Shown here: positions 750 through 60,736 of the stretch, in pieces
Numbering within the stretch: position 1 is the stretch's first letter
Layout of the letters: the number at the start of each line of letters is the position of its first letter
From: Escherichia phage pinkbiff
Sequence record: MN850603.1
Strand: one strand, 5' to 3'
DNA: 64,000 nucleotides
The notes under the pieces: generated by a model
Seen by the model: the letters and a program-made list of their open reading frames with translations, nothing else
Database searches by the model: none
What the model was told of the DNA's origin: nothing
Made by a program: the position numbers and the translations under genes

Positions 750-2351
750 TCAACGTCTAAGCCCCTCATATGGATTTCCTCTCACTAAGTCTGTGTGAGC
801 ACCCATTGATGGTGGCTTGAATAATTTAACTTCGTTAAGACTGTTGAAAGCATCACTGGTAGCATCCACTTGGTCATCTTTAGTTTTGCCATCACCACAA
901 AAGCCTTCAAGCTCTTGAAAGTAAGCTTCATTCCAACTACCTCTCAAGACTTTTACAAGTCCAGCTTCAGAAGCAGCAGAAAATCCCGCAAAGCGGGTAA
1001 CTTTATCTTTATTTGTTGGTTTAGCTCTTGCACGATAGCCTTTCTCGGAAAGTTTCCTGATGAGTGATGTTGCGTAGGATTTACCAGCAGCGCCTGGGTC
1101 TTGAGGGATAAAAATACCAGTTCGCTTACCGTCACTTTCAGCAGTCAAATTAATTTGTGTTTCGACTCCAGAGGGTCTATCTCTAAATCTTACTACATCA
1201 ATGATATAATAGCAACCGTCTTTTTTAGATTTACCCATCTTAACACCTGCTGTCCAGTCTGGATTAGGGTTAACCTCAGATGGTAAAGTTGCTGCTAAGT
1301 CCCATGCTCTAACATCAAATACATCTTCTGGGAGTGAATCAACAATCTCACACCATTGTCTTTGCCAATAGTTTGAACCTTCTGCACGAGCCTTCCAGTT
1401 ACCGAAACGAAGTCTTGCAACGTTTACAGGTGTGTTGTTTTCAAGCTTACCGCGATACTTTGGCTCTAAGAAGTCAAGAATTGGGTTATCATCAATCGTA
1501 CCAGAGATGAAGGTGTATGTTTGAGGAATCTCAAGAGGGAACATTTCAAGAATCTTGTCTCTCTCCCAATCAGAAACCATCACACCATCATTCATTACAT
1601 ACCAACGAATACGACCACACTTTTCAGGGTCTGGGTAACCTTCTTCATCTAAGAATGGTTCTACCCAATCGTAAATAAAGTGGTCTCTATCTGGGTTCAT
1701 GGAAATCTTCATGTATGAATCACCTTCAGCACCAGAACGTAGACGAGTTTGTAGGTATGAAATCTGTGAAGCAGAGAAGTGTGTACCTTCGTCAAAGTAA
1801 ATAGCTGAGTATTCAATACCCTGATGACCTTCAGCGTGCTTTTCAAGTTCTAGGTAGGTAAACTTGATAGTTGCCCCAGAAGGGAATGTGATAGTCATTT
1901 TCTGCTCGTGAGGAATCCCACCAAACTTACCAAATAGTTTCTTTGCAGCAGGCCATAAACCACCTTGTAACTGTGTTGTATTTCGACGGAAATATACAGC
2001 ATTATAGTTAGGGTCTTCAATAAATCTTAAAGAGTCCATTAACAATGCGGCAGTTTTACCAGCACCAGCAGCACCACCATAGAGAACCAAGTCAGCATTA
2101 GTATTTAAAAAGACCTCTTGAGAACCCGGCTGAGGGGCTACATAGTTCTTATCAGTCATCAATTTGAAGATAAGTCTAACTTGGTCTGGTGTGTATCTTA
2201 ATAAAGTCAGAATTTGAGTTGGAAGGAATTTAGAGGGGTCTTTACCGAATGATTTGATAATTTCTTTTACTTCATCAGAAAGCCCCAACTCTCCAGCTAG
2301 GACTTTCCTAACATCTTCCACTCGCTTCTGCTTAACAGCATTTAAGTCCAT
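750..2351 (-). CDS. terL: terminase large subunit
   Basis: Walker A GGAAGAGKT near N-terminus, about 530 aa; ATG at 2351 preceded by GGAGGTG. Track ORF starts at an upstream TTG (2366). Confidence 0.88.
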   Translation of the reverse strand: MDLNAVKQKRVEDVRKVLAGELGLSDEVKEIIKSFGKDPSKFLPTQILTLLRYTPDQVRLIFKLMTDKNYVAPQPGSQEVFLNTNADLVLYGGAAGAGKTAALLMDSLRFIEDPNYNAVYFRRNTTQLQGGLWPAAKKLFGKFGGIPHEQKMTITFPSGATIKFTYLELEKHAEGHQGIEYSAIYFDEGTHFSASQISYLQTRLRSGAEGDSYMKISMNPDRDHFIYDWVEPFLDEEGYPDPEKCGRIRWYVMNDGVMVSDWERDKILEMFPLEIPQTYTFISGTIDDNPILDFLEPKYRGKLENNTPVNVARLRFGNWKARAEGSNYWQRQWCEIVDSLPEDVFDVRAWDLAATLPSEVNPNPDWTAGVKMGKSKKDGCYYIIDVVRFRDRPSGVETQINLTAESDGKRTGIFIPQDPGAAGKSYATSLIRKLSEKGYRARAKPTNKDKVTRFAGFSAASEAGLVKVLRGSWNEAYFQELEGFCGDGKTKDDQVDATSDAFNSLNEVKLFKPPSMGAHTDLVRGNPYEGLRR

Positions 2352-2795: not shown

Positions 2796-2871
2796 TGGAG
2801 AATCCGAAGGGACTTGAACCCTTATAAACCTGTTTTGCAGACAGGCACATAGCCATTTCTGTCACGGATTC
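2796..2871 (-). tRNA. tRNA-Cys (GCA)
   Basis: Manual cloverleaf: T-loop TTCAAGT, 7-bp acceptor stem, encoded CCA, anticodon loop CTGCAAA. Confidence 0.75.
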
Positions 2872-2875
2872 AAAT

Positions 2876-2968
2876 TGGAGGAAGATACCAGACTTGAACT
2901 GGTACACCGATTTCTCAGCTACTGGCAGTTTAGCAAACTGCTCCCTTACCTTTTAGGGTTAATCTTCC
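2876..2968 (-). tRNA. tRNA-Ser (GCU), type II
   Basis: 93 nt, long variable arm, T-loop TTCAAGT, CCA encoded, anticodon loop TTGCTAA. Confidence 0.75.
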
Positions 2969-2969
2969 A

Positions 2970-3704
2970 TTATTTCTGCAATGCGTTCTTCATTTCTGGT
3001 GTTGCAATAGAATCGATTACACCAGTTTTACAAGCATCATCAAACCAGTCTGGTAAGATACCTGCTAAGAACCCATTGATATTCGTTTTAAGGTACTCTG
3101 CAATAAGGGCAGCTTCTTCTTCAATCATCTGCACAACTTCATCTGCATAAGCTGTAATCTTTGAAATACCTTCATTAATCTTACTAACAGCTTGGTTAGC
3201 TAAATCAGAAATAGTATCAAGACCTTTATCAATAGCATCCTGTAAGTCACTTAACACATCATTAACACCATCTAGTGTACTGTTAATCGTATCCATAGCT
3301 TTTTGACCATACTCTGTAGCAACACCCATAATACCACTAAACGGTGTACAGCCAACTTGCTCTCCTGCTGCACCCATAACATTGGAATAACCTTTTGCTA
3401 CCTGCATACGTGATGAGAACTCATCAATGGACTTTTGACCGTAATCTGTCAGCGTCTTAGTAGTTGATGTAGTGCTTGTCAGACTCGTTGTAAAGCCATT
3501 AAGCAGAACTGTTGTAAGTCCAGCAGCAACAAGCTTATCCTTTACTGTAGGGTCTGATACAGAGCTAATAGAGTTTACAAGTGATGTAGAGGCAGCTACG
3601 GTTCCACCGAGAACTGCTGCACCAGTAATAAGGGGATTAGAAAACCCTCTACCGGTTTTTAAGAGATTGAAAATCTCCTTACCTTGTTCTGTCATCTCTT
3701 TCAT
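2970..3704 (-). CDS. hypothetical protein (244 aa) embedded in tRNA cluster
   Basis: Long minus ORF; start set to ATG at 3704 because the track start (3767) would overlap the next tRNA. Thr/Ser-rich low-complexity stretches; no motif recognised. Confidence 0.55.
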   Translation of the reverse strand: MKEMTEQGKEIFNLLKTGRGFSNPLITGAAVLGGTVAASTSLVNSISSVSDPTVKDKLVAAGLTTVLLNGFTTSLTSTTSTTKTLTDYGQKSIDEFSSRMQVAKGYSNVMGAAGEQVGCTPFSGIMGVATEYGQKAMDTINSTLDGVNDVLSDLQDAIDKGLDTISDLANQAVSKINEGISKITAYADEVVQMIEEEAALIAEYLKTNINGFLAGILPDWFDDACKTGVIDSIATPEMKNALQK

Positions 3705-3720
3705 TAAGCACCTTTGAAAT

Positions 3721-3796
3721 TGGTAGTCCAGTGGGATTTGAACCCTATTCTCATGTTTTTCAGACACGCGCTTTAACCATATAAGCTACTTGGACT
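3721..3796 (-). tRNA. tRNA-Phe (GAA)
   Basis: T-loop TTCAAAT, CCA encoded, anticodon stem-loop CGTGT-CTGAAAA-ACATG; acceptor/T-stem pairing imperfect, ends approximate. Confidence 0.6.
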
Positions 3797-3802
3797 ATAA
3801 AT

Positions 3803-3878
3803 TGGGGTGACCTACGGGATTTGAACCCGTATAGACCATGTTCACAGCATGGGTCATTACCATTTATGATAAGGCCAC
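3803..3878 (-). tRNA. tRNA-His (GUG)
   Basis: T-loop TTCAAAT, 7-bp acceptor with one G-U, CCA encoded, anticodon loop CTGTGAA. Confidence 0.75.
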
Positions 3879-3909
3879 ATTTAAGGCCTCTCGTAAGAAC
3901 CCTTAGAAG

Positions 3910-3985
3910 TGGCAGCGGCATAAGGATTTGAACCTTAATAGGACAGCTTCAGAGACTGCTGCATTGCCAGTTATGCTATACCGCT
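3910..3985 (-). tRNA. tRNA-Gln (CUG)
   Basis: D-stem GCAT/ATGC, T-loop TTCAAAT, CCA encoded, anticodon loop CTCTGAA. Confidence 0.65.
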
Positions 3986-3990
3986 AAATT

Positions 3991-4069
3991 TGGTACTCCA
4001 TATCGGATTCGAACCGATACATAACACAGATTTTAAGTCTGGCCTCTCTGCCAATTGGAGTAATGGAGC
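3991..4069 (-). tRNA. tRNA with anticodon UAA (Leu-type anticodon; short variable arm)
   Basis: T-arm ATCGG-TTCGAAT-CCGAT, 7-bp acceptor, A73, CCA; anticodon loop CTTAAAA. 79 nt with no long variable arm, so isotype needs confirmation. Confidence 0.55.
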
Positions 4070-4071
4070 AT

Positions 4072-4147
4072 TGGCGGGGGATGTTGGAATTGAACCAACT
4101 TCTTCGATTTCAAAGACCGAGGTTTTAACCTTGTAAACTAATCCCCT
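4072..4147 (-). tRNA. tRNA-Gln (UUG)
   Basis: T-arm GTTGG-TTCAATT-CCAAC, D-arm GTTT/AAAC, anticodon loop CTTTGAA; 1:72 unpaired. Confidence 0.7.
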
Positions 4148-4155
4148 TTAAATCT

Positions 4156-4713
4156 TTACTTTCTCAGTGGATGAATAAAGAATGCCAACATAACTCTTTC
4201 CCTTGAGAATGCTCTTTCTTCTGGGACAACACTTTTTAGTTTCCATCCAACATAGATTCTCCAGTAAAACTGTTTACCAAAGACTTTAATTGACGGAATA
4301 AAAGCGAATAATCCCCAAGCATTGTTGTTCCACATTAGGAGATAACCTGTCTGATTATCTTCGGGGTCAGAACTTACGTTGATATTACCTTTCCACTTAG
4401 TAACATCTTTTACATCTCTTCCTAATACATGGTAAGAGAAGTTATAAGCTTTGTTTCTCCAGAGCCATCCGACTCTCTGCATGTAGACACCCAGCTTACC
4501 AATCTTTCTAATCTTAGCCCATCTTTTAACGTGACCCTCATCACCATCAATTGGGTTGTCATATGTCTCCATCCATCTGAACCCGAAAGGTAAGTGTCCT
4601 TTCTTCTCACTGTAGAATGGAACTACAAAAGGTGCTAAGATAACTGCTAAGATTGCTGCAAATGGCTCTAACAAAGCTAAGAAAATCCATGAAGCATACT
4701 TCAAATATCTCAT
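4156..4713 (-). CDS. hypothetical membrane protein (185 aa)
   Basis: ATG at 4713 with AAGAGG SD; hydrophobic N-terminal segment. Confidence 0.6.
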   Translation of the reverse strand: MRYLKYASWIFLALLEPFAAILAVILAPFVVPFYSEKKGHLPFGFRWMETYDNPIDGDEGHVKRWAKIRKIGKLGVYMQRVGWLWRNKAYNFSYHVLGRDVKDVTKWKGNINVSSDPEDNQTGYLLMWNNNAWGLFAFIPSIKVFGKQFYWRIYVGWKLKSVVPEERAFSRERVMLAFFIHPLRK

Positions 4714-4732
4714 CTAAATAGCCTCTTTAAAT

Positions 4733-4808
4733 TGGCGCAGGATAAGGGATTCGAACCCCTATTAACAGCTTCGTAGACTGTTGCTCTATCCATTTGAACT
4801 AATCCTGC
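4733..4808 (-). tRNA. tRNA-Arg (ACG)
   Basis: T-loop TTCGAAT, 7-bp acceptor, CCA encoded, anticodon stem-loop ACAGT-CTACGAA-GCTGT. Confidence 0.75.
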
Positions 4809-4922
4809 TTACCTACGAGAACACCATACAGTTTTTCACAAACTTTGTTTTTACGTCTGTTTAGGTATGACGCTCTAAACTTTTTTGCGATGGAGTTATT
4901 ACTCATGGTGCTCTCCTCAAAT

Positions 4923-5000
4923 TGGTGTTCCAAGACGGATTCGAACCGTCACTAATACAAGGTTTGAGCTTGCATCCTCTGCCAATTGGGATACTGGAAC
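4923..5000 (-). tRNA. tRNA with anticodon CAA (Leu-type anticodon; short variable arm)
   Basis: T-arm GACGG-TTCGAAT-CCGTC, acceptor 7 bp, A73, CCA; anticodon loop CTCAAAC; 78 nt. Confidence 0.55.
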
Positions 5001-5001
5001 A

Positions 5002-5076
5002 TGGTACTCACTAAAGGACTTGAACCTTTTTCTTCATCTTGTAAGGGTGATGTTTTACCATATAAACTAAGCGAGT
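5002..5076 (-). tRNA. tRNA-Val (UAC)
   Basis: T-loop TTCAAGT, acceptor 7 bp incl. G-U, CCA encoded, anticodon loop CTTACAA. Confidence 0.7.
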
Positions 5077-5171
5077 GTGAAAGAGGTCTGAAGTTGTGCC
5101 GCTAACTCAACTCCGTGGAATTTGTTACGGTCTTCAGTTGACACCAGCGGTCTTTCACTTGACCTCTGAAT
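5077..5171 (-). other. unassigned structured spacer (tRNA-like/ncRNA candidate)
   Basis: 95-nt gap between tRNA-Val and tRNA-Thr flanked by complementary ends (agaggtc ... gacctct); no canonical T-loop found. Confidence 0.25.
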
Positions 5172-5247
5172 TGGTGCTCCCACAAGGATTCGAACCCTGA
5201 TAAGTTGCTTACAAGGCAACCGTAATAGCCAATTATACGATAGGAGC
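5172..5247 (-). tRNA. tRNA-Thr (UGU)
   Basis: T-loop TTCGAAT, CCA encoded, perfect anticodon stem GTTGC/GCAAC with loop CTTGTAA. Confidence 0.78.
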
Positions 5248-5254
5248 ATTAATT

Positions 5255-5329
5255 TGGAGCATCCAGAGGGAATCGAACCCTCAACCTCAGTTTGGAAGAC
5301 TGTAATTTTCCCGTTTAAACTATGGATGC
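5255..5329 (-). tRNA. tRNA-Gly (UCC)
   Basis: T-arm GAGGG-TTCGATT-CCCTC, acceptor GCATCCA/TGGATGC, CCA encoded, anticodon loop CTTCCAA. Confidence 0.78.
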
Positions 5330-5335
5330 ACTAAT

Positions 5336-5411
5336 TGGTGGAGAAGCAGGGAATTGAACCCTGTACTTAAGTTTGCAAAACTTATGTTTTAACCATGTAA
5401 ACTACATCCCC
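5336..5411 (-). tRNA. tRNA-Ala (UGC)
   Basis: Acceptor stem with G3:U70 (Ala identity pair), A73, CCA; anticodon stem TAAGT/ACTTA with loop TTTGCAA. Confidence 0.8.
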
Positions 5412-5417
5412 AATGTC

Positions 5418-5493
5418 TGGTACAGGTGGAGGGAATTGAACCCGTCGTCTTACTGATTAAGAGTCAGCCGCATAACCATTTTGCTACACCTGC
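5418..5493 (-). tRNA. tRNA-Lys (CUU)
   Basis: T-loop TTCAATT, CCA encoded, anticodon loop CTCTTAA; T-stem has two mismatches. Confidence 0.65.
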
Positions 5494-5500
5494 ATTAATT

Positions 5501-5578
5501 TGGTGGGAGACAAGGGATTCGAACCCTCAAACATCTCGTTCTAAGCGAGATAGGTTTACCAATTACCATCAATCTCCC
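5501..5578 (-). tRNA. tRNA with anticodon UAG (Leu-type anticodon; short variable arm)
   Basis: T-arm GAGGG-TTCGAAT-CCCTT, acceptor 7 bp, A73, CCA; anticodon stem TCTCG/CGAGA with loop CTTAGAA; non-canonical D region. Confidence 0.55.
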
Positions 5579-5833
5579 ATTAAATCTTTTTAGAGAACTT
5601 CTAAGAACCTAAGCAACAAGGTTCCACAACAAGCTGTAATAACCTTAGAAGCCCTCTAAAAAGACCTAAAAAGGTCTTTGCATAGTCTTGTTTAATCCGG
5701 TGACTAGAACCTTTGGAGAGCTTGATATTATCTCTTCTCCGTGACACCTACTAGGTGTTTTATCAGTGTGTACGACAATACACGAGGGATACCAAAGCAA
5801 CATCCGAATGAAGCTTGGCTTTAAATCTTATTA

Positions 5834-5923
5834 GGCGGTAAGTAAAGGAGTCGAACCCTCACCGTATCTCTACAGTGGCAACTGTTTTCAAGACAGTTTG
5901 GCTACCATTAGCCGCTACCTACC
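5834..5923 (-). tRNA. tRNA-Ser (UGA), type II
   Basis: About 88 nt, long variable arm, T-loop TTCGACT, perfect anticodon stem ACTGT/ACAGT with loop CTTGAAA; 3' end reads GCC-T, so CCA not fully encoded. Confidence 0.7.
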
Positions 5924-5936
5924 CCTAATAAGACTT

Positions 5937-6019
5937 TGGCATGGGACGGAGGAGTTGAACCCCTTTGAAACGGTTTTGGAGGCCGTTGCTCATGCCTTAG
6001 AGTCTTAACATCGTCCCAT
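5937..6019 (-). tRNA. tRNA-Trp (CCA) candidate, atypical D region
   Basis: Perfect 7-bp acceptor ATGGGAC/GTCCCAT, T-loop TTCAACT, CCA encoded, anticodon loop CTCCAAA; 83 nt with an over-long D region. Confidence 0.5.
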
Positions 6020-6160
6020 ACTATAATTCGAAGCTTACCGTATTATCTCAACACTGTAAAGCTCCTTCTCAGGTTATTTACATGTTCTGGAAACATGAGA
6101 TACAGACCACCTCCCTACAGGAAGACCCGCTTAGGTCGTCTAAGTAATCTGCTAACTAAT

Positions 6161-6237
6161 TGGCACACCCTACAGGATTCGAACCTGTAACTCAATGATT
6201 AGAAGTCATTTGCTCTGTCCAGTTGAACTAAGGGTGC
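6161..6237 (-). tRNA. tRNA-Arg (UCU)
   Basis: D-arm GTTC/GAGC, anticodon stem AATGA/TCATT with loop CTTCTAA, T-loop TTCGAAT, CCA encoded. Confidence 0.78.
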
Positions 6238-6573
6238 ATTAATCTTTAAAGACTCTCTTAGAAAGCCCTTAAAGATGCCCACCTTATTAATCATACCGTG
6301 GGCTAGTACGCCAAATTCTTTGATGAGGGATTGGAAGACCTCACTGGTGTTTAGCCTATCAAGCTACTGCCAGAAAAACATTGTCGTTTGCATTTATTTT
6401 AAATTTGCAAAATAGACGCTACGCAACGAAAACTATTCAGAATATGTACAACAAATTTCCCCACATTGTGTTACGTCTAACACTCATGTATTGGTGTTTG
6501 AATTATACATATTATGAAGTATTTTAGTTACTATAAAGTAGTCACATCTCAATGTCAACAACTTTATTGAAAT

Positions 6574-6649
6574 TGGTACTGGTAGGTGGAATCGAACCAC
6601 CGATGTTCCCTTATCAGGGGAGTGTTATAACCTTCTTAACTATACCAGC
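6574..6649 (-). tRNA. tRNA-Ile (GAU)
   Basis: T-arm GGTGG-TTCGATT-CCACC, CCA encoded, anticodon loop CTGATAA. Confidence 0.72.
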
Positions 6650-6650
6650 T

Positions 6651-6727
6651 TGGAGGTTCAGATGGGAATCGAACCCACATTCATAGGGTTTATGAGACCC
6701 TTGCATTACCTTATCTGCGACTGAACC
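6651..6727 (-). tRNA. tRNA-Met (CAU), elongator-like
   Basis: Perfect acceptor GGTTCAG/CTGAACC, anticodon stem AGGGT/ACCCT with loop CTCATAA, T-loop TTCGATT, CCA encoded. Confidence 0.75.
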
Positions 6728-6731
6728 ATAT

Positions 6732-6807
6732 TGGTAGAAGTGGAGGGATTCGAACCCATCGCCTGTCAGATTAAAAGTCTGCCGCATCACCATTCTGCTA
6801 CACTTCC
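6732..6807 (-). tRNA. tRNA-Lys (UUU)
   Basis: Anticodon loop CTTTTAA, T-loop TTCGAAT, CCA encoded; T-stem imperfect. Confidence 0.68.
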
Positions 6808-6810
6808 ATT

Positions 6811-6956
6811 AAATTATCTTTGTAGATAAGCTACCCAGACTTGCTTAAGGTCTGTAGCGATGTGCCTTTTTGGGTTTAAATCTAGAATTTACCCTTTCAC
6901 CCTTTGTGGTCGCATACTCACAGGTAAGCTTAATAACTTATCTACAAAGATAATTA
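6811..6956. repeat. 18-bp perfect inverted repeat flanking about 108 nt inside the tRNA cluster
   Basis: attatctttgtagataag (6813-6830) and its reverse complement cttatctacaaagataat (6938-6955); no tRNA fold found between them. Confidence 0.6.
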
Positions 6957-7004
6957 CCAGACCGTTGTTTATCATCTTAAGTGCTACCATTACACCAACT
7001 CGAC

Positions 7005-7035
7005 CTCTGCCGAGTGAAGGAATCGAACCTTCTCC
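7005..7035 (-). other. isolated tRNA T-arm-like element (possible tRNA remnant)
   Basis: GAAGG-TTCGATT-CCTTC T-arm followed by a 7-nt acceptor-like strand, but no matching 5' half in the expected position. Confidence 0.3.
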
Positions 7036-7239
7036 TTTTCTTTACCGAGAAATAGATTGTTTAAGTTTTGCTGTAAACGGTCTTCTGTAAATTTGTTGAG
7101 CCAGACCAAGTTTTAAATTTTTTTCAAAATTGAATTGGCTTGAAAATATCATACGTACTTGCTGTATTTGGTCTTCTGCCCCTTTAAAGAATACTCGTAA
7201 GAACTCTTTAAGGGAGGGGCTAAATAGCCCTCTCAAAAT

Positions 7240-7317
7240 TGGCGGTTACGAAGGGATTTGAACCCTCATCATCTCCCGTGACAGGGGAGTATTTTAACCA
7301 AATTAAACTACATAACC
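7240..7317 (-). tRNA. tRNA-Asp (GUC)
   Basis: Perfect anticodon stem CTCCC/GGGAG with loop CTGTCAC, T-loop TTCAAAT, CCA encoded. Confidence 0.75.
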
Positions 7318-7322
7318 TTTAT

Positions 7323-7410
7323 TGGTGTGCCGTGTAGGAGTCGAACCTACCGAGTCTCAATGACAAGGGATTTACAGTCCCCACCGCTACCATCTACGGG
7401 ATAACGACAC
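7323..7410 (-). tRNA. tRNA-Tyr (GUA), type II
   Basis: 88 nt, long variable arm, anticodon stem GGGGA/TCCCT with loop CTGTAAA, T-loop TTCGACT, CCA encoded. Confidence 0.72.
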
Positions 7411-7478
7411 ATTTAATTTCTATTCAGGCTAAGGACTTGCACCTTACAAATCGGTGAGCAATCGCTTCTCTCCTAAAT
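7411..7478 (-). other. unassigned 68-nt spacer with variant T-arm-like hairpin
   Basis: AAGG-TGCAAGT-CCTT hairpin but no complete cloverleaf. Confidence 0.2.
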
Positions 7479-7479
7479 T

Positions 7480-7556
7480 TGGCGGTTAGTCAGGGATTCG
7501 AACCCTGTGCCATTCGCTTAACAGGCGACCGCACATACCTTATGTGCTTCCTAACC
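7480..7556 (-). tRNA. tRNA-Asn (GUU)
   Basis: D-arm GCAC/GTGC, T-arm CAGGG-TTCGAAT-CCCTG, CCA encoded, anticodon loop CTGTTAA. Confidence 0.72.
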
Positions 7557-7639
7557 ATGTTTAGTATTACCAGACCGTATCTTTCAATTTTTCCGCTAAA
7601 AATTTAATAAATATTGCTGTAAACGGTCTTCTGTAAATT

Positions 7640-7716
7640 TGGAGGCGGGTGCAGGAGTCGAACCTGCCGATACCATGCTAATGAGACATGTGAGACGCCC
7701 TTTCTCTATACCCGCA
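7640..7716 (-). tRNA. tRNA-Met (CAU), second copy (initiator or Ile2-type possible)
   Basis: T-loop TTCGACT, CCA encoded, anticodon loop CTCATTA, 1:72 unpaired (T:C). Confidence 0.6.
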
Positions 7717-7806
7717 ATTCTTAATGACCAGACCAAATATCTTCTTTGTCCGATTTCGTGTCAGATGAGTAGATTAAGTTTGCTGTAATTGGTCTTCTGT
7801 CAAAAC

Positions 7807-7884
7807 TGGCGTTCCAGAAGGGATTTGAACCCTCAAATATCCACTTTGAAAGAGTGGTGACTTTACCATTTTGTCTACTGGAAC
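7807..7884 (-). tRNA. tRNA-Glu (UUC)
   Basis: Perfect acceptor GTTCCAG/CTGGAAC, anticodon stem CCACT/AGTGG with loop CTTTCAA, T-loop TTCAAAT, CCA encoded. Confidence 0.75.
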
Positions 7885-7891
7885 ATTAATT

Positions 7892-7968
7892 TGGTCTCTG
7901 TTGGAGGACTTGAACCTCCGGCCTTACCGCCCCAAACGGAACGCTCTACCAAGCTGAGCTAAACAGAG
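7892..7968 (-). tRNA. tRNA-Pro (UGG)
   Basis: Canonical D-arm GCTC-AGCTTGGTA-GAGC, T-arm GGAGG-TTCAAGT-CCTCC, CCA encoded, anticodon loop TTTGGGG. Confidence 0.75.
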
Positions 7969-11257: not shown

Positions 11258-11629
11258 ATGAAAGCTAAGAGTGCAAAAGACTTTTATTGCTTCCTACAAT
11301 CCTATATCAATTCCGTGCAAAATGGTGAAAGGTACAACCTTAATGATGTTATCCCAACACCTTTGACATGGAGACTCAGCAAATGGCCTGAAGAAGATAT
11401 TACACCAACAAGCGAACAACGCACCTACAAACCTGAAATCAATATTCCAGACTCTGAGAATCTACTATATCCAATGTTCCATATTGTTGGTCTTGGAAGA
11501 TTCCTTATGGATATCCAGTATGTAATTGGTAAGGGTTATAAGGTTAAAGGTATTGTTGTTGGTGATGTATCTCCACATCACAAAGGTTATTTTAGACTAA
11601 ACGCACATTTAGAGGCTAAAAAGAAATGA
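11258..11629 (+). CDS. hypothetical protein (123 aa), paralog of the N-terminal domain of the next gene
   Basis: ATG with AAGGA SD; shares a conserved motif (W-P-E-x-D-I ... F-x-M-D-x-Q-Y) with residues 1-120 of the 11626..13011 product. Confidence 0.6.
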   Translation: MKAKSAKDFYCFLQSYINSVQNGERYNLNDVIPTPLTWRLSKWPEEDITPTSEQRTYKPEINIPDSENLLYPMFHIVGLGRFLMDIQYVIGKGYKVKGIVVGDVSPHHKGYFRLNAHLEAKKK

Positions 11630-13011
11630 TTAAAGCAAAGACTTACCCAGACTTCAAAGAGTTTGTGAAGGGCTTCATTGCAAACGTAAAAGCTGGTAAG
11701 AGATATGATTTTAGAGCATATCAAGAGGCTATTTTACCGCTTACCTATAGTTCGTATTGGCCTGAAGCTGATATTGCAGAAGTTGAGGAGTTTGACTACA
11801 AACCAGACTACAAAGTTCCATTTAGTGATGAGTTGCTTTACAGCATTGGTGCTCAAATGAGAACTTCTGACTTCTTCATGGACTTACAATATGCAATTAT
11901 CAATGGTAAAGACGTTGACACAATTTATTGTGAATGGCTGGCAAGAGTTAAACCATTCTCAATGTTGAATGCTAAGTTGAAGGATGCTATCAAGCCACCA
12001 GCAATCACTCAGCAACCAACCAATCAAACAGTAAATGAAGGTGACACACTTACCCTAAGTGTTATTGCAACTAATGCCACTGGATATCAATGGAAAAAGG
12101 GTGGTGAGGATATCACTAGCGCCACATCTGCAACCTACACAAAACAGTCTGTAGCACCTTCTGATGCAGGTTCATACACTTGTGTTGTATCTGGAGAGGC
12201 TGGAACAAGTGTTACCTCAGATGCGGCAACAGTTACTGTCAACGCACTGCCTGTGATTACACAGCAACCTTCTAGCCAGACCATCAATGAGGGTGGGAAC
12301 ATTAACTTGGAAGTGACTGCAACAGGTGCAACAGGTTATCAGTGGAAGAAAGATGGCTCTGACATCCCTTCAGCTACAGAGGCTACCTATAGCAAGTCTG
12401 GTGCGCTGCCAGCAGATGCAGGTTCATACACTTGCGTTGTAACAGGTGCAGGTGGTTCTGTTACTTCTAGCCCTGCAACTGTCACGGTAAATGCTTTGCC
12501 AGTTATTACCAAGCAGCCAACCAATCAGGTAGTTAATGAGGGTAGCTCTTTGACACTGAGTGTTGAGGCGACAGGTGCGGAAGGTTATCAGTGGAAAAAG
12601 GACGATGTGAACATCCCTAGTGCAACTGGTGCGACTTACACGAAAGCTAACGCAGTTCCTGACGATGCTGGTTCATATACCTGTGTAGTTACTGGTGCTG
12701 GTGGTACAACAGTCACATCTAATGCTGCAACAGTTACTGTGAATGCACTTCCGGTAATCACTCAACAGCCAACCAATCAAGAAACCAATGAAGGTGAGAC
12801 CTTAACGCTGAATGTTGTAGCAACAGGTGCAACAGGTTACCAGTGGAAGAAAGGTGAGGAAGACATCCTCGATGCAACTACTGCAACTTACACCAAAGAA
12901 GGTGCAACCGCTGCTGATTCAGGAAGCTACACCTGTGTAGTTACTGGTGCAGGTGGCTCTGTAACATCTAATGCAGCAACAGTTACTGTTAACCCAGCAG
13001 GGGAGGCATAA
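11626..13011 (+). CDS. Ig-like (I-set-type) tandem-repeat protein (461 aa)
   Basis: N-terminal paralog domain followed by four tandem repeats of about 84 aa, each with P-V-I-T-Q-Q-P ... G-Y-Q-W-K-K ... A-G-S-Y-T-C-V-V. Confidence 0.75.
   Translation: MIKAKTYPDFKEFVKGFIANVKAGKRYDFRAYQEAILPLTYSSYWPEADIAEVEEFDYKPDYKVPFSDELLYSIGAQMRTSDFFMDLQYAIINGKDVDTIYCEWLARVKPFSMLNAKLKDAIKPPAITQQPTNQTVNEGDTLTLSVIATNATGYQWKKGGEDITSATSATYTKQSVAPSDAGSYTCVVSGEAGTSVTSDAATVTVNALPVITQQPSSQTINEGGNINLEVTATGATGYQWKKDGSDIPSATEATYSKSGALPADAGSYTCVVTGAGGSVTSSPATVTVNALPVITKQPTNQVVNEGSSLTLSVEATGAEGYQWKKDDVNIPSATGATYTKANAVPDDAGSYTCVVTGAGGTTVTSNAATVTVNALPVITQQPTNQETNEGETLTLNVVATGATGYQWKKGEEDILDATTATYTKEGATAADSGSYTCVVTGAGGSVTSNAATVTVNPAGEA
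11995..13005 (+). repeat. four tandem direct repeats of about 250 bp each (encode the Ig-like domains)
   Basis: Near-periodic recurrence of ...gttactgt(c/g)aa(c/t)gca(c/t)t(g/t)cc(t/a/g)gt(g/a/t)at(t/c)ac... and ggtta(t/c)cagtggaa(a/g)aa at about 250-bp spacing. Confidence 0.75.
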
Positions 13012-13475
13012 TGCAACTCTCAAGAAAAGGCTTAGATGCTATTAAGTTCTTTGAAGGTCTGAAGTTAGAGGCTTACGAAGACTCTGCCGGAATCCCAACA
13101 ATCGGGTATGGTACAATCCGTATTGACGGAAAACCTGTTAAGATGGGTATGAAAATTACTGCTGAACAAGCTGAACAGTATCTTCTCGCAGATGTTGAAA
13201 AGTTCGTTGCAGCAGTGAACAAATCCATCAAGGTTCCAACTTCCCAGAATGAGTTTGACGCACTTGTAAGTGAAACATACAACATTGGCATCACAGCTAT
13301 GCAGGACTCTACATTTATTAAGCGCCACAACGATGGCAATAAGGTAGGTTGTGCAGAAGCTATGCAATGGTGGAACAAGGTTACAGTCAAAGGTAAGAAG
13401 GTCACTTCAAACGGTCTTAAAAACAGACGTAGAATGGAAGCTGACATTTATCTTGACAGTGTATATCCAAAGTAA
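13011..13475 (+). CDS. endolysin, T4-lysozyme-like (GH24)
   Basis: N-terminal F-E-G-L-K-L-E-A-Y-E-D-S-A-G-I-P-T-I-G-Y-G-T matches the Glu/Asp/Thr catalytic region of T4-type lysozymes; GGGGAGG SD. Confidence 0.85.
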   Translation: MQLSRKGLDAIKFFEGLKLEAYEDSAGIPTIGYGTIRIDGKPVKMGMKITAEQAEQYLLADVEKFVAAVNKSIKVPTSQNEFDALVSETYNIGITAMQDSTFIKRHNDGNKVGCAEAMQWWNKVTVKGKKVTSNGLKNRRRMEADIYLDSVYPK

Positions 13476-15607: not shown

Positions 15608-15826
15608 ATGAAAAAGTTAACTACAGTTGAAGATTACTACAAACTTTCCCTGTTAGAACAGTATCGCAGAAACCAGAATATCAGAAAATGCTATGGTAAA
15701 CACGCTGAGGGTGATTTTTACCATTGCTATGATGCAGATTTAAAAGGCGTAACACCTAGAGGGAAAGTCCTGCAAAGACTTGTTAACCTTGAGTGGAACA
15801 AACGATTGAGAGGGGTTGGAAAATGA
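15608..15826 (+). CDS. hypothetical protein (72 aa)
   Basis: ATG with AAGAA/GGTAAAAG upstream. Confidence 0.5.
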   Translation: MKKLTTVEDYYKLSLLEQYRRNQNIRKCYGKHAEGDFYHCYDADLKGVTPRGKVLQRLVNLEWNKRLRGVGK

Positions 15827-16326
15827 TTTACGAAGAAAGATATAAGATAGATTACCAGAAGACTGGTCATCATGTCTCCCTAAGAGTAACCAAACCAAAT
15901 GGAGACACCGGTATCATAGCACATTTTGGTGGTGATTATTGGTATGGTACTGGTTGCTTTGAAGGCTACAGTCAAGAATACTTGAAAGCTTTCTACAGAG
16001 ACTTTACAAACGACTACAATAGGGTTGTTGACGAAAAGAATAAGTGCATTAAGCATGAACACCATGCCAGAGGCTGCCTGAGTATTATTATGGTACTGGC
16101 ATTCTTCTTAGCAACGTTACTGGCAGTATCAGCAATCAGCTACATAGCTCAAGATTTAACCATTACACAGATTACTGCAAAGCTACATGATATCTGGTAC
16201 TTGTATGCTGTCCCTTTAGCTGGTATCATCATCTCACTAATAAGATTCAGAGTTCATAAGAAACGACTTAAGGATTCTGAGGTTAAACTTGAAGAGGTAA
16301 GTAAAGAATGCAACCTACAATTATAG
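15823..16326 (+). CDS. hypothetical membrane protein (167 aa)
   Basis: ATG at 15823 (ATGA overlap with previous stop, GAGAGGGG SD); two hydrophobic helices in the C-terminal half. Track ORF starts at GTG 15793. Confidence 0.55.
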   Translation: MIYEERYKIDYQKTGHHVSLRVTKPNGDTGIIAHFGGDYWYGTGCFEGYSQEYLKAFYRDFTNDYNRVVDEKNKCIKHEHHARGCLSIIMVLAFFLATLLAVSAISYIAQDLTITQITAKLHDIWYLYAVPLAGIIISLIRFRVHKKRLKDSEVKLEEVSKECNLQL

Positions 16327-22995: not shown

Positions 22996-23340
22996 TTAAA
23001 AACCAAAATCAAGAGAAATTTTTCGTTTGCTCAATTCTTGAACAATTACAGTGTAATAGTCTTTCAAATCACTGACATTTAAAGCATTTATCAGAGAATT
23101 ATAATCATCAACTAACTGAAAATTATCTTTGAAGATGTCACTTATCTGATAGGTTTTCGCTTTATATCTGAAGCTCATCTCTAGCCGCTTTATTTGCTCA
23201 TCACTGAGGCGCCCTAGAAAGCTTTCTACAAGGCTATTACTAACCTGCTGTGTGATTGCCTTATTTGCTAGATTATAGGCTTTATATGCCTTATATAGCG
23301 CGAAAATGGCAATGATTGCAGTGATACCAGTCATTAACAT
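22996..23340 (-). CDS. hypothetical membrane protein (114 aa)
   Basis: N-terminal transmembrane helix; own SD GAGGAAA; no standard cassette upstream. Confidence 0.55.
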   Translation of the reverse strand: MLMTGITAIIAIFALYKAYKAYNLANKAITQQVSNSLVESFLGRLSDEQIKRLEMSFRYKAKTYQISDIFKDNFQLVDDYNSLINALNVSDLKDYYTVIVQELSKRKISLDFGF

Positions 23341-26646: not shown

Positions 26647-26916
26647 TTACTTCCTCGTTTTGAGAACTGCTAAGATTTCTTTAGAGTCTGGTAAGAACCA
26701 TGTGTAGTGATTCTCTTTGATTTCTGGATGAGTGTCAACCTTTATTTTGCAGTCTTTACCGACATGCTTAAGCTGTGCTGTGACACCTTGCATAAAGATA
26801 TGACACATCACATTATCCATAATGGTTGGTATGAAGTCAATTCGCATATAAGTTTCTTTTGGTCGTGGTAACAGTAAGTAACCTTCTACATAGAAAGTAT
26901 CTTCATTCTCTGTCAT
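26647..26916 (-). CDS. hypothetical protein (89 aa)
   Basis: ATG 26916. Confidence 0.5.
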   Translation of the reverse strand: MTENEDTFYVEGYLLLPRPKETYMRIDFIPTIMDNVMCHIFMQGVTAQLKHVGKDCKIKVDTHPEIKENHYTWFLPDSKEILAVLKTRK

Positions 26917-27182
26917 TGCTGCTTATTCCCTAATAAAATCATGTCAATAAGGTTGTTAGCTTTGATTGTGCACTGGTAAAAGCCGTCACGATAGAACTCA
27001 AGGGCTGCTGCTACATCACTGCCTGTGTTGCCTTTGATGATATACCGTGATTCTTCTTGAGTGTACTTATCACTCTCACTTACTTGGGAGTTTTTGAATG
27101 TACTGCTCACTTTGTTCGTTGAACACCCTGACATAGTTATCAGTAACACAAACATTATAAAACTCTGGCTTAGTTTTTTCAT
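26913..27182 (-). CDS. putative o-spanin-like lipoprotein (89 aa)
   Basis: Signal peptide ending in lipobox-like L-I-T-M-S-G-C; starts inside the upstream gene in another frame (Rz1-like overlapped arrangement). Confidence 0.45.
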   Translation of the reverse strand: MKKLSQSFIMFVLLITMSGCSTNKVSSTFKNSQVSESDKYTQEESRYIIKGNTGSDVAAALEFYRDGFYQCTIKANNLIDMILLGNKQQ

Positions 27183-27423
27183 ATGTTAGTACCTCTTTTG
27201 TATGCTTATTCTTAGCAAGCACATCCTTCAAATCATTTTTGTAATTGGTGCTCAATGTTACTAATCCTTCCTGATAAGCATCTTTAGCAACACTTATGAG
27301 CTTTTGATTGTTTAGCTCAGTTTCAGCAACTTGATAGTCTCTGTAAGAGTATCCTCCCCAGACACCTGCCCCAACTAAGAAAACAATTATGAAAGTAGCT
27401 TGACAGAACTCTTTAAATGTCAT
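27076..27423 (-). CDS. putative i-spanin-like protein (115 aa)
   Basis: N-terminal transmembrane helix then a polar periplasmic-type domain; its 3' 107 nt overlap the lipoprotein gene. Confidence 0.45.
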   Translation of the reverse strand: MTFKEFCQATFIIVFLVGAGVWGGYSYRDYQVAETELNNQKLISVAKDAYQEGLVTLSTNYKNDLKDVLAKNKHTKEVLTYEKTKPEFYNVCVTDNYVRVFNEQSEQYIQKLPSK

Positions 27424-27439
27424 TTAACAATCTCCTGAA

Positions 27440-27464
27440 ATGAAAAAGGCTCCCGAAGGAGCCT
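27440..27464 (-). terminator. rho-independent terminator
   Basis: Minus strand: GGCTCC-TTCG-GGAGCC followed by TTTTTCATTT. Confidence 0.65.
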
Positions 27465-27950: not shown

Positions 27951-28646
27951 TCAATGTTTAACTAACATGGTTTTGATGTGTGGAAGGATTCTATTCACTT
28001 TCTGCACATTCTTCTCTGTATCTTCTATAAAACATACTATATTAAAGTAAGGCAGAATGCAAGACTGAATCATCCTCACTTTCAAACTTTCTGCACTTAT
28101 AGAGTTAGTTCCAAAACCACGCATAAAAAGCATATAATCATGCTCTGTGTTATGCCTTAAAAACATCTCAGTAGGTATTCTCTGAGATTCGCCTCTCGCT
28201 GTCAAGAGTCCAACGGCAGCATGATTAGCAATTGCATCAATGATATTGAAAACATACGTTGGTTTTGCTCTTACAGAGTCAAGAAGATTAGTGTACTGTG
28301 AAAATGAACCATCAGTCAATTCCGTTGAACAATCTTCGTGATTAAAATTTGTAAGAACTCCATCAATATCTGCTAAGATAAGATTACCTTTCTCTACAAG
28401 GTCTTTGTTGACTATGACTAAACTATCACGTTTTACACCTATGGATTGTCCAGTCTCTTTGTCCACAACGTTCACAATTGGTTCTGATGTGTGGAACTCT
28501 TCAAGTGAACATACAACTTCTCTTGCGGTGTCTTCAAAATCCCTGCACTGTTCTGGAGTCCATACACAGGAATCAAGACCTAACTCATGAGGGTGTAAGT
28601 CATAAGCATGGCACAATACTTCATCAAACTTTCTTAATTTTTTCAT
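27951..28646 (-). CDS. hypothetical protein with HAD-like motif (231 aa)
   Basis: Internal L-I-L-A-D-I-D-G-V-L-T resembles HAD phosphatase motif I, and G-L-L-T-A-R motif II; assignment tentative. Confidence 0.45.
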   Translation of the reverse strand: MKKLRKFDEVLCHAYDLHPHELGLDSCVWTPEQCRDFEDTAREVVCSLEEFHTSEPIVNVVDKETGQSIGVKRDSLVIVNKDLVEKGNLILADIDGVLTNFNHEDCSTELTDGSFSQYTNLLDSVRAKPTYVFNIIDAIANHAAVGLLTARGESQRIPTEMFLRHNTEHDYMLFMRGFGTNSISAESLKVRMIQSCILPYFNIVCFIEDTEKNVQKVNRILPHIKTMLVKH

Positions 28647-29172
28647 GATTTACCTTAGAAATGTTTGTTGCAAATTCACATTGAGCGATGACTTTCATAT
28701 TGTTATAGACATCTTGAGAGTATTTCTTAGCTTTAGGAATTTTGTATGAATACCCAGCATTGTATGATGCTAAAACTTTTTGTAAAGTCTTCTTTGACTT
28801 TGGTTGACCGTGTACCTTAGTCCAAAATTCAAGCTCTTTGTGTGTTTCCTTTGCAGCATAGTCAAAATCTTTTAAGAGTTTCTTTTTAGCCACATTAGGA
28901 CTGATTTTGTTACGCTTTACAACAGTCTTCAAGTGATTCTGGAAGATACCATAATCATGTGTCTTTTTATTCTCTACCTTCAGACCTAACCCTGACTCTT
29001 GTAAGGCTATAGCAGCTAGAGTGATACCCCAACCTTTACCCATGTTATTCTCACCATACTGGTAAGCTTTTAACATGTTTACTTTTTGGCTAATTGATAG
29101 CTCTGGGCAGTCAACTGCATAAGATAAGTGTGCTGTAAACATTAAGCACAAACCTAGAATCAATTTCTTCAT
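28624..29172 (-). CDS. secreted lytic-transglycosylase-like protein (182 aa)
   Basis: Signal peptide (MKKLILGLCLMFTAHLSYA); Q-E-S-G-L-G ... Y-G-I-F-Q resembles the SLT/GH23 catalytic Glu-Ser and YG-x-x-Q motifs. Confidence 0.5.
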   Translation of the reverse strand: MKKLILGLCLMFTAHLSYAVDCPELSISQKVNMLKAYQYGENNMGKGWGITLAAIALQESGLGLKVENKKTHDYGIFQNHLKTVVKRNKISPNVAKKKLLKDFDYAAKETHKELEFWTKVHGQPKSKKTLQKVLASYNAGYSYKIPKAKKYSQDVYNNMKVIAQCEFATNISKVNHEKIKKV

Positions 29173-43036: not shown

Positions 43037-43243
43037 TTAAATCTTTTTAGAAAACTTCGCAAAGAGTTCTCTTAGTTTTTCAGTGATACCTAACTGTATC
43101 TCTAATATTTCAAAGATAACCCATAGTAACATGGCTCCAAACAATGAACCTTGTTCAAAGTCAGTAAATAGGTTAACAATAAGCATACCAATTACAATAG
43201 CTGGTGCATCAACAACCAAACCTTCCCAAATGCGTTTAAGCAT
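43037..43243 (-). CDS. hypothetical membrane protein (68 aa)
   Basis: ATG 43243; hydrophobic. Confidence 0.5.
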   Translation of the reverse strand: MLKRIWEGLVVDAPAIVIGMLIVNLFTDFEQGSLFGAMLLWVIFEILEIQLGITEKLRELFAKFSKKI

Positions 43244-60499: not shown

Positions 60500-60736
60500 A
60501 TGTGGAAAGCAGTAATTGTGCTTGGTGTTATTTTTCTATCTGGCTGCAACCCTTCTTATGAAGATAAAAATGCTTCTTACAGCCTCCCACCAGAGATGCA
60601 GGATTGCAGAGTATACAAGTTACATGGTGATGCTATAAGCAGAGATATTGTTGTTGTCAGATGTCCAAACTCTCAAACAACAACATCTTACAGCTATGGC
60701 AAAAATGGACAATCACATACTACGGTTATTGAGTAA
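60500..60736 (+). CDS. putative lipoprotein (78 aa)
   Basis: Signal peptide with lipobox F-L-S-G-C; AGGAGA SD. Confidence 0.55.
   Translation: MWKAVIVLGVIFLSGCNPSYEDKNASYSLPPEMQDCRVYKLHGDAISRDIVVVRCPNSQTTTSYSYGKNGQSHTTVIE

What the first reader, a model, noticed from the sequence alone, without database searches (positions are those of the whole stretch)
26913..27423. Overlapped spanin-like gene pair located far from the endolysin
A 115-aa protein with an N-terminal TM anchor overlaps by 107 nt, in a different frame, an 89-aa lipoprotein with a lipobox. This mirrors the Rz/Rz1 overlapped spanin architecture, but the pair lies about 14 kb from the GH24 endolysin and on the opposite strand. 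A secreted SLT-like protein (28624-29172) is nearby.
Basis: inference. Interest (0 to 1): 0.4.

Follow-up and report, generated by a model that had tools for sequence, protein, structure and literature searches.

The report
Felix O1-type overlapped spanin genes
The two overlapping genes are the inner- and outer-membrane spanin genes of a Felix O1-like phage, which break the host outer membrane at lysis; both the genes and their distance from the endolysin are already published, so the finding is correct but ordinary.

Summary
On the minus strand, 27076..27423 encodes a 115-aa protein with an N-terminal membrane anchor. 26913..27182 encodes an 89-aa lipoprotein precursor (lipobox MSGC, Cys20, Ser at +2). 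It starts inside the first gene in the +1 frame, with a 107-nt overlap.

The window is a Felixounavirus, 96-97% identical to Escherichia phage garuso and Felix O1. Both frames are under purifying selection: against phage Moogle, third-codon-position differences fall from 49-61% in the single-coding parts to 8% in the overlap.

The same overlapped pair occurs in four Ounavirinae genera. It also occurs in phages Solent, phi_270 and 2207-N35, immediately downstream of holin and endolysin genes.

The spanin interpretation is therefore well supported, but it is not new:
- GenBank records already label these genes i-spanin and o-spanin.
- Kongari et al. 2018 list Felix O1 among the overlapped two-component spanins.
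- The genome papers for Moogle and Meda state that lysis genes of Felix O1-like phages are scattered rather than in a cassette.

One small correction: lambda Rz/Rz1 is the embedded class, whereas this pair is the overlapped class. No lysis experiment on this spanin family was found.

The nearby secreted SLT-like protein is a T4 Vs.1 homologue with weak but plausible transglycosylase motifs. Nothing links it to lysis.

The parts
27076..27423 (-). i-spanin gene (115 aa). It has an N-terminal transmembrane anchor at about residues 6-26. The periplasmic domain carries the conserved motif EK..N.C...Y...FN and one periplasmic Cys (C92).
   Evidence: ORF list; hydropathy; phrog_1152 Rz-like spanin E=1.1e-41; 100% identical to proteins annotated i-spanin, e.g. 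phage finno; invariant columns G24, E82, K83, N90, C92, Y97, N102 in 8 divergent homologues.
26913..27182 (-). o-spanin gene (89-aa precursor). The signal peptidase II signal is MKKLSQSFIMFVLLITMSGC, with the lipidated Cys20 at codon 27123..27125. Ser at +2 predicts outer-membrane sorting. The mature part is 70 aa, contains no proline, and has one further Cys (C71).
   Evidence: phrog_4180 E=2.2e-50, phrog_2425 E=7.6e-10, phrog_456 Rz-like spanin E=3.4e-4; 100% identical to the ORF labelled o-spanin in vB_EcoM_ESCO45; C20 and C71 invariant in 8 homologues.
27076..27182 (-). 107-nt dual-coding overlap. It encodes the i-spanin C-terminus and the o-spanin signal peptide, with the o-spanin in the +1 frame.
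   Evidence: Third-position divergence against Moogle is 3/36 here, compared with 39/80 and 33/54 in the flanking single-coding parts.
27431..27436 (-). Shine-Dalgarno sequence AGGAGA of the i-spanin, 7 nt before the ATG.
   Evidence: An RBS is annotated at the equivalent place in Moogle.
27192..27197 (-). Shine-Dalgarno sequence AAGAGG of the o-spanin, 9 nt before ATG 27182. It supports the 89-aa start over the downstream in-frame start candidates at 27155, 27149 and 27134.
   Evidence: An RBS is annotated at the equivalent place in Moogle.
27442..27464 (-). Intrinsic-terminator-like hairpin, AGGCTCC-TTCG-GGAGCCT followed by TTTTT. It lies between the upstream 154-aa gene and the i-spanin RBS.
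   Evidence: A terminator is annotated at the same position before the phiEa21-4 i-spanin.
13011..13475 (+). GH24 endolysin, the partner lysis gene, in a convergent transcription unit 13.4 kb away.
   Evidence: Pfam PF00959 E=2.5e-40; phrog_7 endolysin E=1.1e-56; equivalent to Felix O1 gp35 lysin (PMC3185647 supplementary Table 1).

Best explanation
These are the two subunits of the Felix O1-type two-component spanin, in the overlapped gene arrangement.

Inferred from sequence: the 115-aa i-spanin is anchored in the inner membrane by its N-terminal helix and extends a mostly helical domain into the periplasm. The 89-aa o-spanin precursor is exported. It is lipidated on Cys20, cleaved by signal peptidase II, and sorted to the inner leaflet of the outer membrane, because residue +2 is Ser rather than Asp.

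Inferred from the lambda Rz/Rz1 model: the two C-terminal regions bind each other, and the conserved periplasmic cysteines (C92 in the i-spanin, C71 in the o-spanin) probably form homodimer disulfides. The resulting complex spans the periplasm through the peptidoglycan mesh. When the GH24 endolysin at 13011..13475 degrades the wall, the complexes become free to collapse and fuse the inner and outer membranes. This removes the last barrier to phage release.

The genes sit in the rIIA-rIIB-Vs.1-polynucleotide kinase transcription unit, not beside the endolysin. This placement is the normal, conserved layout of Ounavirinae.
For: - Topology signals.
- Family assignment: phrog_1152 'Rz-like spanin', E=1.1e-41.
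- Dual-frame purifying selection in the overlap.
- The same overlapped +1 architecture, lipobox and cysteines in Moogle, SUSP1, phiEa21-4 (137-nt overlap) and Solent.
- Homologues of both proteins lie immediately downstream of holin and endolysin in Solent, phi_270 and 2207-N35.
- Curated i-/o-spanin annotation with RBS in Moogle and SUSP1.
- Felix01, FO1a and UAB_phi87 are listed under 'Overlapped' two-component spanins in Kongari 2018.
- Lysis genes are described as scattered in Felix O1-like phages.
- Felix O1 ORF6 is transcribed, by RT-PCR.
- It is the only such pair in the window.
Against: - I found no experiment on this spanin family: no lysis phenotype, no lipid labelling, no complementation.
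- There is no detectable sequence similarity to T4 PseT.3/PseT.2, and no Pfam family above threshold, so homology to the tested lambda and T4 prototypes is not shown.
- The mature o-spanin has no proline, unlike lambda Rz1.
- The coiled-coil character of the i-spanin could not be confirmed, because the AlphaFold2 single-sequence model has pLDDT 46.9.
- The lipobox has Met at -3, which is less common than Leu, Ile or Val.
- A terminator-like hairpin sits directly upstream, and the expression timing is unknown.
Confidence: 0.9

Rival explanations
1. The pair is an envelope module unrelated to lysis. One example would be a superinfection-exclusion or receptor-masking lipoprotein (like T5 Llp or Cor) with a membrane partner, expressed early together with rIIA and rIIB.
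For: - The genes lie in the presumed early transcription unit with rIIA, rIIB and polynucleotide kinase, 13.4 kb from the endolysin.
- PHROGs leaves the lipoprotein families phrog_4180 and phrog_2425 unnamed.
- There is no functional test in the literature I searched.
Against: - Homologues of both proteins sit in canonical holin-endolysin-spanin cassettes in three unrelated phage groups.
- The +1 overlapped TMD-protein/lipoprotein architecture, conserved over about 30% protein identity, is the spanin signature.
- T4 spanins are likewise next to pseT and far from genes e and t.
Confidence: 0.06
2. Only the 115-aa gene is real, and the 89-aa overlapping ORF is a chance reading frame with a fortuitous lipobox.
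For: - Several GenBank records leave it unannotated, start it at Met17 (garuso), or label the wrong ORFs (vB_Si_35FD).
- Felix O1 ORF7 was not tested by RT-PCR.
Against: - Third-position variation collapses in the overlap, 3/36 against 39/80 and 33/54.
- The part of the ORF outside the overlap shows a coding pattern, with differences of 10, 5 and 33 out of 54 at codon positions 1, 2 and 3.
- The ORF, its lipobox Cys and its second Cys are conserved down to 29-35% identity.
- It has its own AAGAGG ribosome-binding site.
Confidence: 0.01
3. The spanin pair and the nearby secreted Vs.1/SLT-like protein (28624..29172) form one functional lysis module. In this module a Sec-exported transglycosylase replaces or supplements the holin-endolysin route.
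For: - The protein has a signal-peptide-like N-terminus plus E59-S60, G75-IFQ and Y137-NAG motifs, with a weak Pfam SLT match.
- It is labelled 'putative lysin' in garuso.
- No holin is named by PHROGs in the window, and none was identified in Meda.
Against: - The SLT match is below Pfam's cut-off.
- There is no PDB sequence match, and the structure model is unusable.
- Two genes and a terminator separate it from the spanins.
- In phiEa21-4, several additional genes lie between the polynucleotide kinase region and the spanins.
- From my own knowledge, T4 carries the homologue Vs.1, yet its lysis depends on genes e and t.
- A conventional cytoplasmic GH24 endolysin is present.
Confidence: 0.03

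Closest known systems
Felix O1 ORF6/ORF7 (NP_944790/NP_944791) and their Felixounavirus orthologues, e.g. the i-/o-spanin genes of garuso, finno and ESCO45; catalogued as an overlapped two-component spanin in Kongari et al. 2018
   Same: Essentially the same genes. The i-spanin is 100% identical to that of finno and others. The o-spanin is 100% identical to that of ESCO45 and 98.9% to Felix O1. The 107-nt overlap and the neighbouring genes are the same.
   Different: Nothing of substance. Only the database labels differ: hypothetical protein, a truncated start, or the label placed on the wrong ORF.
Spanin pairs of Sashavirus Solent, Klebsiella phage phi_270 and Proteus phage 2207-N35 (phrog_1152 plus phrog_2425)
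   Same: The same two protein families, the same +1 overlapped arrangement, and the same conserved cysteines and C-terminal motifs.
   Different: In those phages the pair is the last element of a holin-endolysin cassette. Here it is 13.4 kb from the endolysin on the other strand.
Phage T4 PseT.3 / PseT.2 spanins
   Same: A two-component spanin located away from the endolysin (e) and the holin (t), and within one gene of the polynucleotide kinase gene. Here the kinase gene is 27951..28646, one gene upstream of the pair.
   Different: The T4 genes are in the separated arrangement, not overlapped. They are upstream rather than downstream of the kinase gene. They belong to different PHROG families (739 and 812), with no significant pairwise similarity.
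Lambda Rz / Rz1
   Same: A type II inner-membrane protein plus an outer-membrane lipoprotein, encoded in different frames of shared DNA. Each subunit has periplasmic cysteines. The presumed role is outer-membrane disruption as the last step of lysis.
   Different: Lambda Rz1 is wholly embedded in Rz, is proline-rich, and lies in the S-R-Rz cassette. Here the o-spanin runs past the end of the i-spanin gene, has no proline, shows no detectable sequence homology, and lies outside any cassette.

Membership tests
Two-component spanin (i-spanin + o-spanin), overlapped class | The i-spanin is a small protein with a single N-terminal transmembrane domain and the rest in the periplasm. | tested here: met
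   One hydrophobic segment at residues 6-24 (Kyte-Doolittle 1.75 over 19 residues, 2.9 over 11) and no other. The N-in/C-out orientation is inferred, not tested.
Two-component spanin (i-spanin + o-spanin), overlapped class | The i-spanin periplasmic domain is predominantly alpha-helical or coiled-coil. | tested here: inconclusive
   The AlphaFold2 single-sequence model is all-helical (H3-36, H42-71, H75-84, H86-110), but its mean pLDDT is 46.9. No coiled-coil predictor was available.
Two-component spanin (i-spanin + o-spanin), overlapped class | The o-spanin has a signal peptidase II signal sequence with a lipobox Cys. | tested here: met
   MKKLSQSFIMFVLLITMSGC matches both [ILMFTV][^REKD][GAS]C and PROSITE PS51257. 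The Cys is invariant in 8 homologues. Actual processing cannot be tested here.
Two-component spanin (i-spanin + o-spanin), overlapped class | The o-spanin has an outer-membrane sorting signal, i.e. no Asp at +2 after the lipidated Cys. | tested here: met
   The residues after the Cys are C-S-T-N. Position +2 is Ser or Thr in all 8 homologues.
Two-component spanin (i-spanin + o-spanin), overlapped class | The o-spanin gene starts inside the i-spanin gene in another frame and extends beyond its stop codon. | tested here: met
   The overlap is 107 nt in the +1 frame. Dual-coding constraint is shown.
Two-component spanin (i-spanin + o-spanin), overlapped class | At least one subunit has a periplasmic cysteine available for intermolecular disulfides. 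This holds for 507 of 528 catalogued systems. | tested here: met
   i-spanin C92 and o-spanin C71 are both invariant in the alignments. The statistic comes from PMC6139136.
Two-component spanin (i-spanin + o-spanin), overlapped class | Genetic linkage to a holin and an endolysin. This is usual but not required. | tested here: not met
   The pair is 13,438 nt from the endolysin, on the opposite strand. Linkage is not a defining feature: T4 and the Bcep781-like phages also lack it. Homologues are linked in Solent, phi_270 and 2207-N35.
Two-component spanin (i-spanin + o-spanin), overlapped class | The pair is required for outer-membrane disruption. Mutants give a spherical-cell lysis defect in Mg2+, and the pair complements lambda Rz/Rz1 mutants. 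| not testable with these tools
   No experimental report for this family was found in the literature searches.
Lambda Rz / Rz1 sequence families (Pfam) and T4 PseT.3 / PseT.2 families | Significant sequence similarity to the prototype proteins. | tested here: not met
   No Pfam family is above threshold for either protein. BLASTP against T4 PseT.3 gave no alignment. Against PseT.2 only the signal peptide aligned, E=0.04. T4 belongs to phrog_739/812; this pair belongs to phrog_1152/4180.
Family 1 lytic transglycosylase (SLT domain), for the neighbouring 182-aa protein at 28624..29172 | An SLT-domain profile match above threshold, with the catalytic Glu-Ser, GLMQ-like and AYNAG-like motifs. | tested here: inconclusive
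   Pfam SLT E=6.3e-4, 19.7 bits, below the 21.3 cut-off. The motifs E59-S60, G75-I-F-Q78 and Y137-N-A-G140 are visible in the sequence; reading them as SLT motifs rests on my own knowledge. There was no PDB sequence hit, and the model has pLDDT 47.8.

The most novel reading that the evidence does not exclude
The rIIB-proximal cluster works as a Sec-dependent envelope-breaching module that partly substitutes for a classical holin. The cluster comprises the Sec-exported Vs.1-like putative transglycosylase at 28624..29172 and the spanin pair behind a conserved terminator. This would explain why no holin has been identified in Felix O1-like phages. A milder variant: the conserved terminator immediately upstream of the i-spanin, seen here and in phiEa21-4, doses or delays spanin expression from an early transcript.
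Probability: 0.04. Interest if true: 0.5.

Novelty: already known. Interest (0 to 1): 0.08.

Why it matters
The finding adds little. It recovers a correctly recognisable but already catalogued lysis gene pair in one of the best-known Salmonella/E. coli phage genera.

Its practical value is limited to annotation hygiene. Many Felixounavirus GenBank records still call the o-spanin hypothetical, start it at Met17 without a signal peptide, or place the spanin labels on the wrong ORFs. PHROGs v4 also leaves the o-spanin families phrog_4180 and phrog_2425 unnamed.

The open biological questions in this genus lie outside the finding. They are the identity of the holin, the role of the Vs.1-like secreted protein, and when the spanins are expressed.

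Tried and rejected
- **AlphaFold2 on single sequences.** The i-spanin model has pLDDT 46.9 and the SLT-like protein model has pLDDT 47.8. Both are too poor for fold searches, so none were run.
- **PDB sequence search for the SLT-like protein.** No hit up to E=1.
- **NCBIfam for the spanins and their neighbours.** Only sub-threshold matches appeared, for example to lipoprotein signal peptides.
- **Homology to the T4 spanins.** I tested this because both pairs lie next to a polynucleotide kinase gene. It was rejected: no alignment, and different PHROG families.
- **Search for a holin among small TMD proteins of the window.** None matched a named holin family. The best-looking candidate, 43037..43243, is labelled only 'membrane protein' in other records.
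- **tRNA scan between the endolysin and the spanins.** None were found. The 26-tRNA cluster is at 2796..7968.
- **First T4 fetch, at 136-148 kb.** It missed pseT. Another fetch, at 160-166.5 kb, did not contain vs.1.
- **Large protein-database searches.** I did not run them, because the answer was already settled by annotated phage records and the literature.

Full report
**What the window is.** The 4-kb region around the finding is 95-97% identical to more than 200 Felixounavirus genomes, including Escherichia phage garuso (96.7%) and Salmonella phage Felix O1 (95.8%). The window has 39% G+C. On the minus strand, the gene order around the finding runs:
- rIIA
- rIIB
- a Vs.1-like 182-aa protein
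- polynucleotide kinase
- a 154-aa protein of unknown function
- the two genes of the finding
- a macro-domain/Tk.4-like protein

This is the Felix O1 order, ORF1 to ORF13.

**Checking the observation.**
- ORF 27076..27423(-) encodes 115 aa with one hydrophobic segment near the N-terminus, FCQATFIIVFLVGAGVWGG.
- ORF 26913..27182(-) encodes 89 aa beginning MKKLSQSFIMFVLLITMSGC|STN. This has a positively charged n-region, a hydrophobic core and a lipobox ending in Cys20. It matches both the lipobox pattern used for spanin annotation and PROSITE PS51257.
- Residue +2 is Ser, so by the E. coli Lol rule (established knowledge) the mature lipoprotein should go to the outer membrane.
- The second ORF begins inside the first in the +1 frame. 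They share 107 nt.
- Each ORF has its own Shine-Dalgarno sequence at proper spacing, AGGAGA-7 nt-ATG and AAGAGG-9 nt-ATG. This favours the 89-aa start over the downstream in-frame start candidates.
- The GH24 endolysin is at 13011..13475(+), 13,438 nt away in a convergent transcription unit.

**Is the overlap more than chance?** Yes. The 511-nt locus aligns without gaps to Citrobacter phage Moogle and Escherichia phage SUSP1, which belong to other genera of Ounavirinae.

| Region | Third-codon-position differences vs Moogle |
|---|---|
| i-spanin only | 39/80 |
| o-spanin only | 33/54 |
| Overlap | 3/36 |

This is the pattern expected when both frames are under purifying selection.

At much greater distance, with 27-35% protein identity, the same TMD-protein/lipoprotein pair in the +1 overlapped arrangement is found in Erwinia phage phiEa21-4 (137-nt overlap), Salmonella phage Solent, Klebsiella phage phi_270, Proteus phage 2207-N35 and Kuravirus SU10. 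Across these eight sequences several residues are invariant. In the o-spanin they include the lipobox Cys and a second Cys (C71). In the i-spanin they include a periplasmic Cys (C92) within the motif EK..N.C...Y...FN.

A strict lipoprotein-signal scan of the whole window found only this ORF and one unrelated ORF at 60500..60736.

**What it is.**
- The 115-aa protein matches PHROG 1152, 'Rz-like spanin', over its full length (E=1.1e-41).
- The lipoprotein matches the unnamed phrog_4180 and phrog_2425, and weakly matches the spanin family phrog_456.
- Positional evidence from relatives is the strongest independent functional support. In Solent the homologous pair closes a holin-endolysin-holin-i-spanin-o-spanin cassette.
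- In phi_270 and 2207-N35, phrog_1152 members with an overlapped lipoprotein ORF follow directly after genes that match holin and endolysin PHROGs.
- The inferred mechanism is therefore the standard spanin one, taken from the lambda Rz/Rz1 model summarised in Kongari et al. 2018 (PMC6139136). An inner-membrane subunit and an outer-membrane lipoprotein subunit form a periplasm-spanning complex. The complex is held in check by the peptidoglycan meshwork and disrupts the outer membrane once the endolysin has degraded the wall.
- Shown here: the signals, the architecture, the selection on both frames, and the family membership.
- Inferred: membrane topology, complex formation, disulfide bonding and the lytic role.

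**Comparison with what is known.** This is not new.
- The same genes are labelled i-spanin and o-spanin in garuso, finno, Moogle, SUSP1, ESCO45 and others. They are labelled 'Rz-like spanin' in the Felix O1 RefSeq record.
- Kongari et al. 2018 list '(Felix01, FO1a, UAB_phi87)' among the overlapped two-component spanins.
  - The Meda announcement says the same and adds that no holin was identified (PMC6486253).
  - The Felix O1 genome paper notes the absence of a holin-lysin cassette and compares this with T4 (PMC3185647). That 2010 paper did not yet recognise ORF6 and ORF7 as spanins. It listed ORF6 as a membrane protein that is transcribed, and ORF7 as not tested.
- T4 is the classical precedent for spanins separated from the endolysin. 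PseT.3 and PseT.2 lie next to pseT, far from genes e and t. The Felix O1-type pair is also within one gene of a polynucleotide kinase gene. However, the proteins show no detectable similarity to the T4 ones, so the shared neighbourhood may be coincidental.
Lambda Rz/Rz1 is the embedded class and this pair is the overlapped class. The pair is also not a sequence homologue of Rz/Rz1 as far as Pfam can tell.

**The neighbouring SLT-like protein.** ORF 28624..29172(-) has a Sec-type signal peptide. It has motifs resembling the Glu-Ser, GLMQ and AYNAG motifs of family 1 lytic transglycosylases; that reading rests on my own knowledge. Its Pfam SLT match is below the cut-off. It is the Felix O1 ORF3/T4 Vs.1 homologue, and some records call it 'putative lysin'. 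A PDB sequence search found nothing, and the structure model was unusable. Nothing ties it functionally to the spanins.

**Weaknesses of the conclusion.**
- I found no experimental work on this spanin family.
- The helical or coiled-coil nature of the i-spanin could not be confirmed, because the model was of low confidence.
- The mature o-spanin contains no proline, unlike Rz1.
- The lipobox has Met at -3.
- A terminator-like hairpin lies 20 nt upstream of the i-spanin start. It is conserved in position in phiEa21-4, and the expression timing is unknown.

None of these points argues for a different function.

**Verdict.** The finding is already known. Interest is low.

Noticed in passing
window 28624..29172 (-): A 182-aa protein with a Sec-type signal peptide (MKKLILGLCLMFTAHLSYA|VD) and lytic-transglycosylase-like motifs (E59-S60, G75-IFQ78, Y137-NAG140). 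Its Pfam SLT match is sub-threshold, and it falls in phrog_600 (unknown function). It is the homologue of T4-type Vs.1. Its role is unknown.
   Followed up: partly
window 27442..27464 (-); L006 2246..2265: An intrinsic-terminator hairpin sits about 20 nt upstream of the i-spanin start codon, leaving no room for a promoter between them. A terminator is annotated at the same position in Erwinia phage phiEa21-4. Spanin transcription must therefore depend on read-through or on an unrecognised promoter.
   Followed up: partly
window 60500..60736 (+): This is the only other predicted lipoprotein in the window (MWKAVIVLGVIFLSGC|NPSY..., 78 aa, phrog_902, unknown function). It has no adjacent TMD partner and no C-terminal TMD, so it is not a spanin. 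It might be a superinfection-exclusion-type lipoprotein.
   Followed up: partly
window 43037..43243 (-), 39704..40090 (-), 39501..39716 (-), 15793..16326 (+), 22996..23340 (-): These are small proteins with one or two transmembrane segments, and none matches a named holin family. The 68-aa protein at 43037..43243 has two TMDs and a charged C-terminus, which is holin-like. Other records call it only 'membrane protein'. The holin of Felix O1-like phages remains unidentified.
   Followed up: partly
L001 2414..2635; L002 1148..1611; L008 2766..2939; L013 and L014 near 2000..2250: Database annotation of the o-spanin is inconsistent. garuso starts it at Met17, which removes the signal peptide. vB_Si_35FD puts 'o-spanin' on the next gene downstream and 'i-spanin' on a truncated o-spanin ORF. 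SU10 annotates only the C-terminal 57 aa. phi_270 and 2207-N35 do not annotate it at all. PHROGs v4 leaves phrog_4180 and phrog_2425 unnamed.
   Followed up: yes
window 26913..26916 (-): The o-spanin stop codon overlaps the start codon of the next gene (ATGA). That gene is 26647..26916, 89 aa, phrog_4391, function unknown. The overlap suggests translational coupling of the spanins to a conserved gene of unknown function.
   Followed up: no
window 11626..13011 (+): The tail protein immediately upstream of the endolysin is 461 aa with four Ig-like domains. Felix O1 gp36 is listed as 294 aa. This phage therefore has an Ig-domain extension or fusion.
   Followed up: no
window 2796..7968 (-): A cluster of 26 tRNA genes.
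   Followed up: no
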